Shown: positions 43,113 through 49,916 of the stretch, piece after piece
Position numbering within the stretch: the stretch's first letter is position 1
How the letters are laid out: each line of letters starts with the position of its first letter
Origin: Haliotis rufescens
Lineage: Eukaryota
NCBI RefSeq assembly: GCF_023055435.1
Contig: NW_025963891.1
Location: 5,766,001-5,830,000, forward strand
Direction of reading: 5' to 3'
Length of the DNA: 64,000 nucleotides
Notes under the pieces: generated by a model
Told to the model about the DNA's origin: nothing
Seen by the model: only the letters and a program-made list of their open reading frames with translations
Databases searched by the model: none
Translations under genes and position numbers: made by a program

Positions 43113-46100
43113 TCAGAATGCTGTGTAGTTTGGATTTCCTCCCATTACATTATTGTTCATGCCGCCCATGTTGTTGCCATAGCCACCACCGCTGCCTCCT
43201 CCCCCGCCGCCACCTCCCATGTAATTATTCATGTTGCCTGCAACAAAAACGCTTACATTAGAGCTTGTCCAAATTAAGTGTTCATGTGTCAATGTTTCTG
43301 CCAATTAGTGACTATCTCTAAATATTTTCATACATATAAAAAGAAAAAATTCAAAACAAATATATATTTTGAGTATTATCGAAATGAAGTAAATCATGGC
43401 AAACCTTATACAACCCATTGTCAATACAGGATGCAGTAAGAAGTAAGAAGGTCCTTGTCATAACCCTGATGTTTGGAGTTAAGGTTCAGAGGGTATCAAG
43501 ATTCAAATACTATCGTCATAAAATACAAGGACTCTACAGAACCCAATTAATTTCAATCAGCATATTTTTTGTACTTGAGAACCTTTGTTTGACCTACCTT
43601 GATAACCACCTCCGCCGCCGCCGCCGCCGCCTCCTCCTCCTCCGAAGTTGTTACCATTGCTTCCGTAGTTACCACCACCCCCACCATATCCTCCGGAGTT
43701 GCCAAAGCCACTGCCCATGCTGCCACCCCCACCAAAACCACTTCCACCCATCTGCCCTGAGCCAAATCCACCTCCACCTCCGCCGCGTTCAGCTGGAGCT
43801 GAGTTGAGGAACAGTTCAATGTAGCGGTGCTCTGTAATCAATGATGGATGATCATAATTAGTACTTGTCAATAAAAGAACTATCTGATACATTATTCAAC
43901 TCTTCACAATCCTGTATCCACTATGTTCCTTGATCACTTGTTTAAGATCATTTTAATGAATCAAACTTTCATAGTATTCTAAAACATCCCAATCTCATGA
44001 CTTCTTATGAAGTTCAAATTTACTACTTTAATCTATCCTATACAAAAAGATAAGATTATTCCAATCAACTTCCTTTACCCATTACCACTTACGCATATTT
44101 GACTTGTGTTTCTTCATAGCCTCAACAGCTTCTTGATGAGAGCCAAAGTCAACATTTGCCTCGCCAGTTGGTCGACCATTTGGGGCATATTCAAATTCAA
44201 CTTTCACAGGGCGTATTGGGCTGAAGAACTGAAATTCAAAACAATTGTTTTACAATTTATGAATAAGCAGAAAATCGAACATCTAATAGGAGACACATAC
44301 ATCAAGGAAATGTCTTGTGGTAATAAAGAACTTTAACATGTTCTAAGCTTTTGAGTGGTTCAGTGCAGTAGCTGGAAGTAATATCAACTCACATCATACA
44401 CATCCTGTTCAATGGCCTGGAATGGAAGGCCTCGCATGTGTACAGAATGTCCTGTGTCGCTAATGTAATGACTGCCAGGAGTGGCTCCGCGGGGCCGGTC
44501 CATGTTCATCCGGCCACGCTGATTGTTGCCTCTCATTCCACCGCCAACACCAGCTCCGCCGCCGCCACCTCCTCCACCACCTCGACGGTTGCCACCCCCA
44601 AATCCCATACCACCTCCATACCCTCCACTGTAATCATCAAAGTCATCTTCAAAGTAACCTGAAAACAAAAGCAAAAAAATAATAACAAACAATGCTAAGA
44701 ACTCATAATACTAAACAACAAAAAATGTGAAAGTTTTGAGCTACTGTGAGCTAATACAAAAATATATCAAACTAATTTACCTTTCACATTTCTGCCACCA
44801 CGCCCACGGCCGTATCCTCCCATTCCCATGCCGCCGCCACCGCCGCCGCCGCCTCCTCCTCCTCCACCACCACCTCCTCCTCCTCCCATGTTGCCCATGC
44901 CCATCCCACCGAAGCGGTCATTTCGATCATAGGGCCCTGGGCGTCCCATGGACCCACCCATCATAGGCCTCATCCGTTGCTGGCCCATGGCATTGTAGGC
45001 CTCGCCCATACTGCTTTTGAAGATCTCTATGTACCTGAAAGGTGCCAATCAACATGCTGCAGTCTGTGTACAATACATATATGTACATCCTAACATAAGA
45101 GCATTAGCAATTGTATATTACTCAGGGACTTCTTGTTCCGATTCCTTTCATTGTCTTTCCCCAATTAGTTTCAATAACCTTGGTTACATAATGTCATACA
45201 TTAAAAAACATGAATCTTTCTTTATCACACAACTTAACACATTCAGTTTAATCAAATAGCATAGCTAAATTTTAAGTTACACATTGTCATCAAAGGATAA
45301 TTAATTCTTTATCACTGGAATTCAATGTAAATCCCTAATACAATAAAACAAAAAGACTGAAAACATTCACACAACTTTCTCACCACTTCTCATCAGTACA
45401 TGTATTGAAGTTTCAATATTTACTTTTTTCTGTACGTTTACATTACAAACCTAATATTTCTGAAACATCACACCAGCACATCAATCATACAGAACGGTAA
45501 TAGTTATAAATGGCTACAGTAACACAAGTGTCTATAATTTATTGCCATCACTCCAAACATCAACAGAAGATTCCTTGTATCCACCATCCACCCGGCCCAA
45601 TGGGACCCCAACCATCCATACCCACTCTGCCCAGTAGCATCCAAGAGAAAGAAGTAAAGTTAGCGATGTTGCAGGCGGTGGAACGCGACTGTCCCTCCCG
45701 CTGCTGTCATCAGCCCAGCCTCCCACCTGTGCCCTATCCTTTCCTTGTGTTTACCCAGGGCTTTTTCTGCTATGTCTTGGGATGCAAACTGGACATACGC
45801 CTCCCCCGTGCTGCGCCCCTGTCGATCCTCAGGTAGCATAATCCCATTGGGTACAATCTCCAACCCTACAGACCCACCCAACAAAAACAGAGCATAGCAA
45901 TCTCAGTCCGATGGTAGTGCAACATAGAACATGAAGTAGTCATCAGAGTAGCATGTATGTAGCTGTGTGTCAACTGTCCGCAGTATGTACCTGTTACCTG
46001 CAGGTACTTTTCATTTGGCTGCACCAATCAAAATATCTCACGAGTACCAATGAGTAGAATTATTTTCCTAACTGTTACAGTGTTTAAAGTTTCTGTTATA

Positions 46101-48561
46101 TTTAGGAATATGATACCCAGTGATTTGGAAATTCTTTTAAATAGTTTCAATTCACATTACAACTTCTGTCAAAAACGTCACTGACCAGACTAATATTTCA
46201 TATTTCAATTCCAAAATCCATGCAAATGTCTGATTCTTGAATTAATAAAATAATAAACACTCATTATAATTTCCTGAAATCTATAACCTAAAATTGTAAT
46301 GTCCTTTGATGTGCTGAATTATTGTCAATTGTATCATGTCTGTCAAATCCAATGCGATTAAAAGCTGACAATACCTACAACAAATTTTAAATTCTGTTAT
46401 CCACAGTCTTAAACCATTTAAGATAACAATTTCTAGTATTGTTGTGATAAGATCGATTTAAGAAAGGACAAATGTTTACAAAGCAGGTTGTCTTCAATGG
46501 TGTTTGATGTGATGTTTCCAATTATCTCCCTTGAACCATCTACAGCAGCCAGCAGTGCCAGGACAAGTTCAGGTGGAACACTGACTATACGAAGGCAGTC
46601 ACAAACAAGCCCAAACAATGTATCTGACATGGTGGTCAATAGACAACGATTGCCAGTAGTTTTCAAACAGTCCCCAAAACAAAACCATTACCAAAAAGTC
46701 ATTTCTCAAAACCATTCCTTTGCAATCCTTTACAGTTCACACTACACACTGGTTCATTCTTCAATCCATTGACCAAGAACTCAGTTGTAATGGTATAATA
46801 GATGGATCCTCTTTATCCATCTCAAATCAGAAATGCTACCCTTTATTTAGCACCTTTACATCACTGAATCGATCTTATCACCATTTAACATACACAGTTG
46901 TTTATTACACAAGCAGACAATTAAGCATTTATCATAATCCCATTTCATCAACCATTACACACTTTATAAATTACAGTTTATGTTTGAATGAATACTTTAT
47001 TAAAATTTGCAAAGTTTATTTATTCATTTTACAAAATATGTGTATGTTATGTACAGAAAAGTAAGAGACATACCTGTGAAAAATTGAGCAATTTCTTCTT
47101 TGGAGCAGCCAAATGGGAGGCCCCGAAGCCTGACTACGGCCTCGGTTGGCGCCTGCTGGTTGGGCCCTGCACGTTTGATCACCCAGTCCATCTCACTCTT
47201 TTTGGACCGGAATACTGAAAATAAACGCTGATGTGATACTTTCCATACACTACAGATTCATACCATAAAATACTATCAGTGTTCCAAGTGAAGGATGAAA
47301 GTAAAAAAGGTCTTGTCATAACCGTAATGCTAATGTATGTAATGAAAGTTTTAGAGTCTCTAGATTTAAATACTAAAACAAAAAATACTCAAGGGATTAA
47401 GTTTCAAACACCGAATATAAGAAAAATATTTTAGTGGTTATCACCCTTATCTCACCTTCGATATATCTCTGTCCCATATGTTCATTATTCTTCTTGACTG
47501 CCTGCTCTACATCCTCATCATTCATAAACTCTACAAATGCTTCTCCACTAGGACGTCCCTCACGAGAAAATGTAAAGTGGACATTGCGTATTCCACAGCT
47601 CTCAGGATCTTCAATTGAAGGAAAAACATTCTCAACCTATACTTAAAAAACATGCTCAATAGATAGCTGCATAATTCTAGTAGTATACTGCTCCCCTTTT
47701 CATATCTAACATCTACTAGTCATTGATACATAGATACAAATCCTTCCTCCAGGCCAGATAAAGAAACTTAAGATGATTTTGAACCAGCCTTCACAAGTTC
47801 AAAAGTTAACATTAAAGAATAGAGTTGACATTTTACTCCTAGATCTAGATCCCAACCATTTACCGTTTAAGTACACCAAATATTCCTAACTGAAAAGGAA
47901 TTCTGCCAAAACGTTTGAACCGGGAAATATGAACGAGTGTAGTTTCCTTTTTTCTATCACAGTATAATGTAACACTATCAGTAAGGGCAGCCAAGGCAGG
48001 GTACCTGACATGTTTTCCAGTTGCAAATGTATAGACATTTTTCTTCACTTACCAACTTTAATGTCCGAGTTTTCTTCTCCTACAAATCAAAATGAAAACA
48101 TGTATAATCAATAGATATAATAATAGAACATTTCAATAAGAACATGTGTTGGTAAAGAAGATTTTATCTGACTTCATTAGTTTCAACTTCAGCTACACGA
48201 TTTCATTCTGCTGTCAGCAAATTTCTGAATCAGTGTTCAGTCGAGAAACTGGAAAACTGGGGCCAAATGATCCCTACCTTTCTATGAATTATGGACATTT
48301 GATGAAACCGAGGAACACTCAAAAAAGTTTGAAATAAAGACAACTTGAACACTGGTGAATATTGTGTGAAAAGTAGCAATCAGCAAGATTCATTTCCAGT
48401 GACATCAAAATAAGATGATGCTACATATTTTATTTGGCTATCACTAAAGACCAATGTTTACAGTACAAACCTGCAAAAAATCGGACTACTTCCTCAGGTG
48501 TAGCTGCCCATGGCAAACCGCGAAGCCTTACAACAAAGCCGTCATCCTCGTGAGAACCCAT
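43113..48561 (-). CDS. HNRNPH: hnRNP F/H (GRSF1/glorund family) RNA-binding protein, 3 qRRMs plus Gly-rich regions, ~512-521 aa
   Basis: Exons 48471-48561, [48053-48079 optional], 47456-47608, 47074-47214, 45727-45865, 44781-45034, 44393-44658, 44093-44228, 43598-43831, 43113-43237. qRRM signatures [76 protein letters not shown]. The symbol is family-level only. Confidence 0.95.
48053..48079 (-). CDS. HNRNPH: Candidate 27-nt micro-exon in qRRM1 (G-EENSDIKV)
   Basis: Minus strand ttttgatttgtag|GAGAAGAAAACTCGGACATTAAAGTTG|gtaagt. Phase 1/1, no stop codon. Confidence 0.7.
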
Positions 48562-49095
48562 GCCTTCATAGACAAAAATGATTGTTAGTACCTTATATAT
48601 ATTTATTGCGATCATGGTAACAATGCTTAAGATATAGTTAACATTTTGCACGTAGACTGACCGTCAAAATGAACAGAACACAACATAGACCCATATGCAT
48701 TCCAATACCATCAATGAAAGATAATAAACAAATACAGATCTAATTCTGCAATGTGATTACCATGATACTTCTAATTTTAAAATTTTAATTATTTACATGG
48801 CAACTTGCGTCAAAAAAATACAATCTTAAATCTACTATGAGTACGTATACACCACATGTTACAGTAGAAGTAATTTCTCTACAAGCCACCATAATGCGCC
48901 AAATTCATGCATAGATCTAGGCTACTCAAATTGTGTTATCAGTGGTTGTGGTTTGAATCTCTAATAGTGGAAGTCCTTGTTCCTAAATTCAGTGATGAGA
49001 AAGGAGACTGTTTATAAAACCACAATTGCAAAGGCGACAAAATATTGGGTATGTCTTTGAAACACTTAATGAAAGTACAAAACGAAGGCATTACT

Positions 49096-49916
49096 TAGTT
49101 TGCAGAGATCCTATATTGTCGAGTGTCAGCACAATCAATGACTTACACGCTACCGAGTCAGCCTGCGACTTGGGCTTTGTTTCTATTGTCCTCGATTTTA
49201 AACATAAATACGCAACTGACCAGGAATATATCAAAATCAAATATTAGAGGTCCGGAAATGCAGTGGATTTGCTTATACTGATACTTGTCAATATGAAGCA
49301 ATCCGAAAGAATCATTAGCATTGGCCACGACTCCGCACTACTCTTTGAAGTCTTTGTCACGTTTAGGCGCAAATTGCAAAATTGTAGATATACTTAGACC
49401 CACCATCTCACATAAATTACTACAAGATATTAAACAACATGGAGTGCACTATGTGGCATTATGCATAAGAATGCACTTAATACAAGCTGACATACCGGCA
49501 ATGTGATATTTAAGTCTTGCTGCTTTCGTCTGAAAATGTCGAACTTTCCAATATGGCTACGCCGCGTTCTCCCGCATGTGCTTGCCGGAAGTGGCCGAAC
49601 TGCATTACGTTTTCATTTTACTTTTTCTATTTTTACCAGAAAATGTTACCATTTTGTGAAGATTGGTTTTTAATGAGCATTAACACGAAAAATATGATAT
49701 TTTTGTACCACCAACGTTTATGGACGCCAAACTTCCTTCCGGTTTGGGCATAAACATTCGATCGCCATATTGGTGACATTGTTAATAGAGGAATAGCCTT
49801 CGAAATCAACAATCATCTGCATTACCTATGTAGAAGTATTGAATTTACTGGTATTTTTGAAGGACTAAGAGTACAGTCAATTTACCCTTCAAGGAATTTT
49901 TGTGTGGTTTTCGAAG
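49096..49916. promoter_or_regulatory. Bidirectional promoter hnRNP F/H / MOB1 with two candidate non-coding first exons of the hnRNP gene
   Basis: Minus-strand donors at 49095 (GTAATG) and 49495 (GTATGT). ETS CCGGAAGT ~49585 and CCGGAAAT ~49252. YY1-like AATATGGC ~49550 and CGCCATATT ~49763. Confidence 0.6.

What the first reader, a model, noticed from the sequence alone, without database searches (positions are those of the whole stretch)
45560..45895. 139-nt frame-shifting exon flanked by G-runs: HNRNPH1 exon-4 autoregulation apparently conserved
Seen: exon 45727-45865 is 139 nt (GLEIVPNG...HKERIGHR). Skipping it gives GGT ACA TAG, an immediate stop with four junctions downstream. Its acceptor tract is interrupted by GGGTGGG, its donor is CAG|GTGGGA, and nine G-runs of 3 or more follow within ~150 nt. 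Established: hnRNP F/H qRRMs bind G-runs. As I recall, human HNRNPH1 exon 4 has the same size, peptide and CAG|GTGGG junction, and is skipped in a negative-feedback AS-NMD loop. Inference: the circuit dates to the bilaterian ancestor.
Basis: partly seen in the sequence, partly recalled or inferred. Interest (0 to 1): 0.7.

Follow-up and report, generated by a model that had tools for sequence, protein, structure and literature searches.

The report
Ancient self-limiting hnRNP H splicing switch
A mollusc gene for a G-rich-RNA-binding splicing protein has runs of G built into both splice sites of one frame-shifting exon, a layout shared from corals to vertebrates, and assembled transcripts keep both neighbouring introns, so it likely uses the same self-limiting splicing switch known from human and mouse cells.

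Summary
Observation confirmed: a 139-nt qRRM2 exon of a molluscan hnRNP F/H gene, with CAG|GTGGGA donor, GGGTGGG in the acceptor, nine downstream G-runs and an immediate stop on skipping. It is the positional orthologue of the mammalian HNRNPH1 essential exon. The G-run donor occurs in 22 of 23 sequence clusters versus 0 of 19 neighbouring donors, across mollusc-, annelid-, arthropod-, vertebrate- and coral-like loci, so the layout predates Bilateria; one paralogue clade lost it (0 of 7). RNA-like contigs from four studies show both flanking introns retained while other introns are nearly absent, but no skip junction in 0 of 6 sets (weak negative). The two introns diverge about four-fold less than other introns between two related species (9/1900 vs 65/3253). 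This matches the mouse 'NMD-switch exon flanked by detained introns'. Binding, repression, skipping and NMD are inferred from mammals, not shown here. The scan noted this layout before in an octopus and an insect genome; the retention and intron-constraint data are new here.

The parts
45727..45865 (-). 139-nt frame-shifting coding exon, second half of qRRM2 (orthologue of HNRNPH1 essential exon)
45873..45879 (-). GGGTGGG interrupting the acceptor pyrimidine tract (-14..-8)
   Evidence: G3 run in the last 30 nt in 21 of 23 clusters vs 0 of 14 downstream control acceptors
45721..45729 (-). Donor CAG|GTGGGA; GGG occupies +3..+5 of the U1-binding site
   Evidence: GTGGG in 22 of 23 clusters vs 0 of 19 upstream control donors
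45693..45724 (-). Donor-proximal G-run cluster (4 runs, +3..+34)
45591..45632 (-). Distal G-run cluster (5 runs, +95..+136); holds the only four-run pattern, with loops up to 12 nt
45866..47073 (-). Upstream flanking intron (1208 nt), retained in RNA-like contigs, constrained; first stop 50 nt in if retained
45035..45726 (-). Downstream flanking intron (692 nt), retained in RNA-like contigs, constrained; first stop 67 nt in if retained
45445..45951 (.). 507-nt block (exon plus both G-run flanks) with no listed difference between organism A window and organism B runs X13, X14, X15
47074..47214 (-). Upstream exon (141 nt, first half of qRRM2), ordinary donor CAG|GTATGT
44781..45034 (-). Downstream exon; in the skipped frame the TAG at 45029-45027 is the premature stop
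43113..49560 (-). hnRNP F/H gene, 10 coding exons plus a 5' non-coding exon, 521 aa, three qRRMs; only match to this exon in G000 at E<=1e-3

Best explanation
This is the molluscan orthologue of the HNRNPH1 essential exon, with G-runs inside both of its splice sites and both flanking introns retained in RNA-like contigs, and it likely works as a negative-feedback switch in which the gene's own protein binds those G-runs and stalls splicing. Shown here: the 139-nt exon, the stop on skipping, the conserved GGG at donor +3..+5 and in the acceptor tract, retention of both introns in otherwise spliced contigs, and purifying-like constraint on both introns. Inferred from mammals: hnRNP F/H qRRMs bind the G-runs and compete with U1 at the donor and with the pyrimidine-tract factors at the acceptor, so that high protein levels hold the transcript as a two-intron detained pool; that pool is resolved either by inclusion (protein) or by skipping to a PTC isoform that NMD removes, which would keep it rare at steady state.
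For: Exon and flanks. Orthology. Conservation with controls: 68 of 69 intron-bearing loci have 139 nt, 58 of 69 CAG|GTGGG; by 90% clusters 22 of 23 vs 0 of 19 control donors; acceptor G3 21 of 23 vs 0 of 14; downstream G3 runs 4.5 vs 0.7 per 150 nt (Wilcoxon p=0.0006, n=19, clusters not phylogenetically independent). Read-through ORFs: W then a G-initial codon after GHR in 98 of 103, none ending in a stop there; 20 of 21 in the search whose query had no intron tail. A paralogue clade keeps the exon but has TCG|GTAY donors and no acceptor G-run (0 of 7 clusters), so codons do not force the motif. RNA: both introns covered at contig depth 40-140 in X1, X5, X6, X13 against 0-9 for most other introns; X2 contig 17 has four upstream introns spliced and 45866-47073 retained. 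Constraint: 9 substitutions in 1900 nt vs 65 in 3253 nt elsewhere non-coding, Fisher p=2e-6; coding 9 in 1317. Mammalian mechanism; hnRNP H on a G-stretch at a donor: review passage. UPF1 is in G000.
Against: No skip joint in 6 of 6 RNA-like contig sets, and no skip-type protein among 167 qRRM2 first halves in stored proteins (queries favoured exon-containing proteins). Runs are contigs whose RNA status is a guess, depth is a poor measure, and in X1 the last intron also lies in a deep contig merged with the terminal exon. Intronic F/H sites can stimulate splicing (abstract), so the sign of the effect is not given by sequence. The distal G3 cluster is not conserved in number (1-11); the coral-like L034 has no acceptor G3 run; L031 has CAG|GTTTGG. 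C. elegans hrpf-1 uses an exon whose skipping leaves two RRMs, apparently a different exon. The 80 loci were the best 80 of 146 ranked against a query that included intron read-through.
Confidence: 0.65

Rival explanations
1. Retention-only feedback: the protein represses splicing of the two introns, but in molluscs the output is a retained-intron transcript (held or degraded in the nucleus, or sent to NMD through the stops 50 and 67 nt into the introns); exon skipping is a vertebrate elaboration or minor.
For: Retention in all six RNA-like sets, rough retained share 11-75% in the four with both measures; no skip joint; ORFs with the upstream junction spliced and the downstream intron read through occur in coral-, annelid- and vertebrate-like proteins (P0218, P0236, P0048, P0049).
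Against: An NMD target is expected to be rare and contigs drop rare paths; even known spliced joints are missing from the X2 and X14 tables. The non-triplet length and an early stop on skipping are kept in every locus with a downstream exon, although both follow from conserved intron positions.
Confidence: 0.15
2. The G-runs are enhancers or sites for another regulator: hnRNP F/H (or SR proteins and Clk signalling) help a weak donor, the introns are simply slow, and there is no negative autoregulation.
For: F/H sites near intron ends stimulate splicing (abstract of PMC1326234); in mouse, Srsf4 and Clk control this exon and its detained introns.
Against: The most conserved G-runs overlap the U1 site and the pyrimidine tract, where binding should obstruct; in human and mouse H1/H2 repress the orthologous exon.
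Confidence: 0.13
3. No regulated event: intron coverage is DNA or nascent RNA, and the G-runs are a frozen accident or reflect protein constraint.
For: RNA status of the runs is a guess; the only raw-read run laid 0 reads; qRRM2 is unusually conserved as protein (85% to macaque H1 vs 46-51% for qRRM1/3).
Against: Other introns are 10-fold or more lower in the same runs, one contig joins spliced upstream exons to the retained intron, the intronic motifs are non-coding, the introns are constrained, and a paralogue clade lost the motif with the exon intact.
Confidence: 0.04

Closest known systems
Mammalian HNRNPH1 essential exon (exon 4 or 5 by numbering): autoregulated NMD-switch exon flanked by detained introns, cross-regulated by HNRNPH2
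   Same: Orthologous gene and exon, 139 nt, 40 of 46 residues identical, CAG|GTGGG donor, G-run in acceptor, PTC on skipping, both flanking introns abundant in RNA.
   Different: Single-copy gene here, so no H1/H2/F/H3 cross-regulation; denser downstream G3 cluster (9 vs 1 in H1-like L010, 8 in H3-like L016); skip isoform, NMD and binding not shown in the mollusc.
SRSF5 unproductive splicing conserved from anemone to human (Lareau and Brenner 2015, PMC4379411)
   Same: Same kind of claim: one unproductive event in a splicing factor kept at an orthologous position across animals, with adjacent intron retention, and lost in paralogues after duplication (passages).
   Different: SRSF5 uses a poison exon included for decay; here an essential exon is skipped or its introns retained, and the protein's own motif is fixed inside the splice sites.
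C. elegans hrpf-1 exon 5 and Drosophila glorund NMD isoforms
   Same: hnRNP F/H orthologues with an NMD-sensitive splice form.
   Different: hrpf-1 skipping leaves two of three RRMs, so it appears to be another exon; the glorund event was not identified in the passages seen.

Membership tests
HNRNPH1 essential-exon autoregulation | Gene is an hnRNP F/H orthologue with three qRRMs | tested here: met
   521-aa model with three RGLP[WF]..RYIE motifs; best hits hnRNP F/H
HNRNPH1 essential-exon autoregulation | Same 139-nt exon at the same intron positions | tested here: met
   Mouse exon 139 nt; amniote-like L010, L016 share boundaries and peptide. The human genomic sequence itself was not available.
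HNRNPH1 essential-exon autoregulation | Skipping gives a PTC more than 50 nt before the last junction | tested here: met
   Stop at codon 140, 882 nt before the last junction
HNRNPH1 essential-exon autoregulation | Poly-G motifs in and around the exon | tested here: met
HNRNPH1 essential-exon autoregulation | Exon-skipped transcript exists | tested here: inconclusive
   No joint in 6 of 6 contig sets, but contigs drop rare paths and lack some known joints; raw-read run laid 0
HNRNPH1 essential-exon autoregulation | Skipped transcript is NMD-sensitive | not testable with these tools
   Only UPF1 presence shown
HNRNPH1 essential-exon autoregulation | The protein binds the G-runs and represses its own exon | not testable with these tools
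   Inferred from mammals
Detained introns (Boutz 2015) | Intron far more abundant than neighbours in otherwise spliced transcripts | tested here: met
   Contig-level only:
Detained introns (Boutz 2015) | Higher sequence conservation than other introns | tested here: met
   0.47% vs 2.0% substitutions between organisms A and B, one DNA-like run
Detained introns (Boutz 2015) | Polyadenylated, nuclear, not an NMD substrate | not testable with these tools
   No library type, fractionation or NMD data
RNA G-quadruplex element | Four G3 runs with loops of 1-7 nt | tested here: not met
   None; one pattern with loops up to 12 nt at 45632-45596; G4Hunter-type peaks 1.2-1.5

The most novel reading that the evidence does not exclude
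A self-sensing splice-site code (the protein's own GGG motif written into donor +3..+5) and its detained-intron output have been kept at one orthologous exon since the cnidarian-bilaterian ancestor, with two-intron detention as the ancestral and dominant output and loss of the code in duplicated paralogues: a second pan-animal unproductive-splicing event after SRSF5, and one whose cis logic can be read from sequence.
Probability: 0.45. Interest if true: 0.7.

Novelty: new member of a known kind. Interest (0 to 1): 0.52.

Why it matters
Individual alternative-splicing events are rarely conserved between phyla; SRSF5 is the standard exception. A clinically relevant human circuit (mantle cell lymphoma mutations, HNRNPH2 disorder compensation) whose splice-site G-runs are near-invariant from corals to amniotes tells which G-runs matter most (donor +3..+5 and acceptor, not the variable distal cluster), gives single-copy invertebrate systems without paralogue cross-talk, and supplies a natural loss control. 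The mechanism itself is known in mammals; what is added is its age and the retention output. I found no paper reporting this conservation in 8 searches (open-access library only, supplements not read).

Tried and rejected
No RNA holder is on record as RNA in the run search ('no RNA holder listed'); the one raw-read run laid (X19, small-RNA library) gave 0 reads, no test. Rfam: 0 matches at E<=1 in 44900-47300, so no snoRNA/miRNA explanation. Local folding: no stable structure over the G-run block (z -1.3 to +1.6), and no shared hairpin after the donor across 30 clusters. Canonical rG4 pattern absent. A branch-point/pyrimidine/AG motif at 45663-45627 and two donor-like CAGGTA at about 46000 were considered as decoy sites: no joint uses them and they are not general in relatives (BP+Y pattern in 4 of 30, donor-like in 3 of 30). 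Gaps in contig cover at 45593-45701 in X1 and X2 were not used: these runs also lose other G-rich parts. Search of 50% representatives for skip-type truncated proteins found none (low power). The tree is the quick version on 104 columns with many open forks; used only for rough placement together with identities. Sequence look-up in earlier findings gave nothing. Three papers sought by id were not held.

Full report
Gene and observation. The finding lies in a minus-strand hnRNP F/H gene (43113 to about 49560). Correcting boundaries with RNA joints gives ten coding exons, including a 27-nt microexon, and a 521-aa protein with three qRRMs. Best named matches are gastropods and bivalves, and the locus falls among molluscs in a quick tree. 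The exon peptide has one match in the 1.33-Gb own genome at E<=1e-3. Other introns tested have 0-2 runs in their first 150 nt; 0 of 5000 whole-intron shuffles reach nine; dinucleotide shuffles of the block itself give p=0.06.

Orthology to the mammalian exon. The peptide is 40 of 46 identical to human hnRNP H qRRM2 (6dhs). A preprint gives the mouse Hnrnph1 essential exon as 139 nt, skipped to an NMD isoform, repressed by HNRNPH2 and flanked by detained introns (10.1101/2025.11.04.686541, passages). The lymphoma preprint reports self-repression and poly-G mutations around exon 4 (10.1101/686956, passages); PMC13001508 confirms cycloheximide sensitivity (passages); Boutz 2015 names Hnrnph1 as an NMD-switch coding exon flanked by detained introns, promoted by Srsf4 (PMC4281565, passages). 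I could not fetch the human genomic sequence; two amniote-like loci, L010 (exon peptide identical to macaque and ostrich H1) and L016 (H3-like), have the same exon and CAG|GTGGGG.

Conservation. A metagenome scan kept 80 of 146 confirmed loci, ranked against P0001, which includes intron read-through. With L001, 69 carry introns and 12 are mRNA-like; 68 of 69 exons are 139 nt (one 136), 58 have CAG|GTGGG, one CAG|GTTTGG, ten TCG|GTAY. Collapsed at 90% exon identity into 30 clusters, 22 of 23 CAG clusters have GTGGG against 0 of 19 donors of the exon just upstream; 21 of 23 have a G3 run in the last 30 nt of the acceptor against 0 of 14 downstream acceptors; downstream G3 runs average 4.5 vs 0.7 per 150 nt (p=0.0006; 3.5 without the donor's run, p=0.004; clusters are related, so p-values overstate). 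Independently, intron read-through ORFs show W plus a G-initial codon after GHR in 98 of 103 (own protein included) and never a stop; 20 of 21 did so in the search whose query was exon only. By identity these span vertebrates, molluscs, annelid-like, chelicerate, crustacean and insect sequences and anthozoans: L034 is 83-87% identical to Acropora, Nematostella and Actinia vs 70-74% to bilaterians, and 7 of 8 anthozoan-like read-through ORFs have the W. So the layout predates Bilateria. The coral-like locus lacks the acceptor G3 run, and the distal cluster varies from 1 to 11 runs. Seven clusters forming one clade (annelid-like neighbourhood, placement weak) keep the 139-nt exon but have ordinary donors and no acceptor run: a natural loss control showing the codons do not force the motif. 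Skipping gives a stop within 3-54 codons in every locus with a downstream exon. C. elegans hrpf-1 has an NMD-coupled skip that leaves two RRMs, apparently another exon (PMC2265522, passages); glorund has an NMD isoform of unstated type (PMC2689934, passages).

RNA. Of 21 listed runs I laid 8. In X1, X5, X6 (organism A, three studies) and X13 (organism B) single contigs cover the 1208-nt intron at depth 140, 93, 40, 63 and the 692-nt intron at 115, 101, 40, 83, beside spliced joints at 46/51, 158/231, 18/27, 496/432; other introns are 0-9, except that in X1 the last intron sits in a deep contig merged with the terminal exon. Rough retained shares are 11-75%; the tool warns that contig depth is a poor measure and RNA status is a guess. 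X2 and X14 again cover both introns, and X2 contig 17 joins four spliced upstream junctions to the retained 1208-nt intron, which DNA cannot give. No skip joint appears in any of the six sets, but X2 and X14 also lack rows for known spliced joints, so absence is weak. X19 (raw small RNA) laid nothing.

Constraint. The DNA-like run X15 of organism B differs from the window at 9 of 1900 positions in the two flanking introns, with no gap listed there (5 gap rows not shown), against 65 of 3253 in the remaining mostly non-coding sequence (Fisher p=2e-6; 21 of 1148 using only introns with listed rows, p=4e-4) and 9 of 1317 in coding exons. No difference is listed in 45445-45951. One individual per species was compared, so polymorphism is included.

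Mechanism. Shown: layout, conservation, retention at contig level, constraint. Inferred: the qRRMs bind GGG at donor +3..+5 and in the pyrimidine tract and obstruct U1 and the acceptor factors (precedent: hnRNP H on a G stretch at the NF-1 exon 3 donor, review passage in PMC1524908; the competition at the acceptor is from my own knowledge), both introns stall, and the pool is resolved to inclusion or to skipping and NMD (UPF1 present). Confidence 0.65. Rivals: retention-only output (0.15), enhancer or other-factor control (0.13; PMC1326234 abstract), no regulated event (0.04). No Rfam family, stable fold, shared hairpin or canonical rG4 was found.

Novelty. The circuit is known in mammals; SRSF5 is the precedent for pan-animal unproductive splicing (PMC4379411, passages). 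Eight searches showed no report of this exon's conservation outside vertebrates; subscription papers and supplements were not seen and tables of conserved exons may list it. Two earlier notes of this scan describe the same layout in an octopus and an insect genome, read after my own analysis.

Noticed in passing
window 48053-48079 (-): 27-nt in-frame microexon inside qRRM1, included in all contig joints seen; no skipping seen.
   Followed up: partly
L046, L048, L049, L055, L058, L063, L073, L074, L080, L081: Paralogue clade with the same 139-nt exon but TCG|GTAY donor and no acceptor G-run, while L039-type loci keep GTGGG: apparent loss of the switch after duplication.
   Followed up: partly
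window 45663-45627 (-): Branch-point-like CTAAC, 16-nt pyrimidine tract and CAG between the two G clusters: possible decoy acceptor; no joint uses it; not general in relatives.
   Followed up: partly
window 46000-45988 (-): Two donor-like CAGGTA about 130 nt upstream of the exon's acceptor, in the constrained intron; unused in contigs.
   Followed up: partly
window 45727-45734 and relatives: Exon end GGGCACAG is near-invariant at synonymous positions (His CAC in 23 of 23, Gly GGG in 17 of 23 clusters); qRRM2 is 85% identical to macaque H1 vs 46-51% for the other qRRMs.
   Followed up: partly
L031; L041: L031 has donor CAG|GTTTGG and no G-rich flanks (possible loss); L041 has a 136-nt exon, still frame-shifting.
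   Followed up: no
L064 vs L077: Two mRNA-like contigs of one cnidarian-like protein differ by an in-frame loss of about 52 residues ending in the start of qRRM3: possible alternative splicing or assembly error.
   Followed up: no
run X14, joint at window 48564: A loose end continues with sequence matching window ~49880-49910, suggesting an alternative upstream first exon.
   Followed up: no
window 47024-46847 (-): Four AATAAA in the AT-rich start of the upstream retained intron; contigs run through them, no sign of use.
   Followed up: no
window 48133-48353: Short repeat in an intron: several extra DNA contigs lay here.
   Followed up: no
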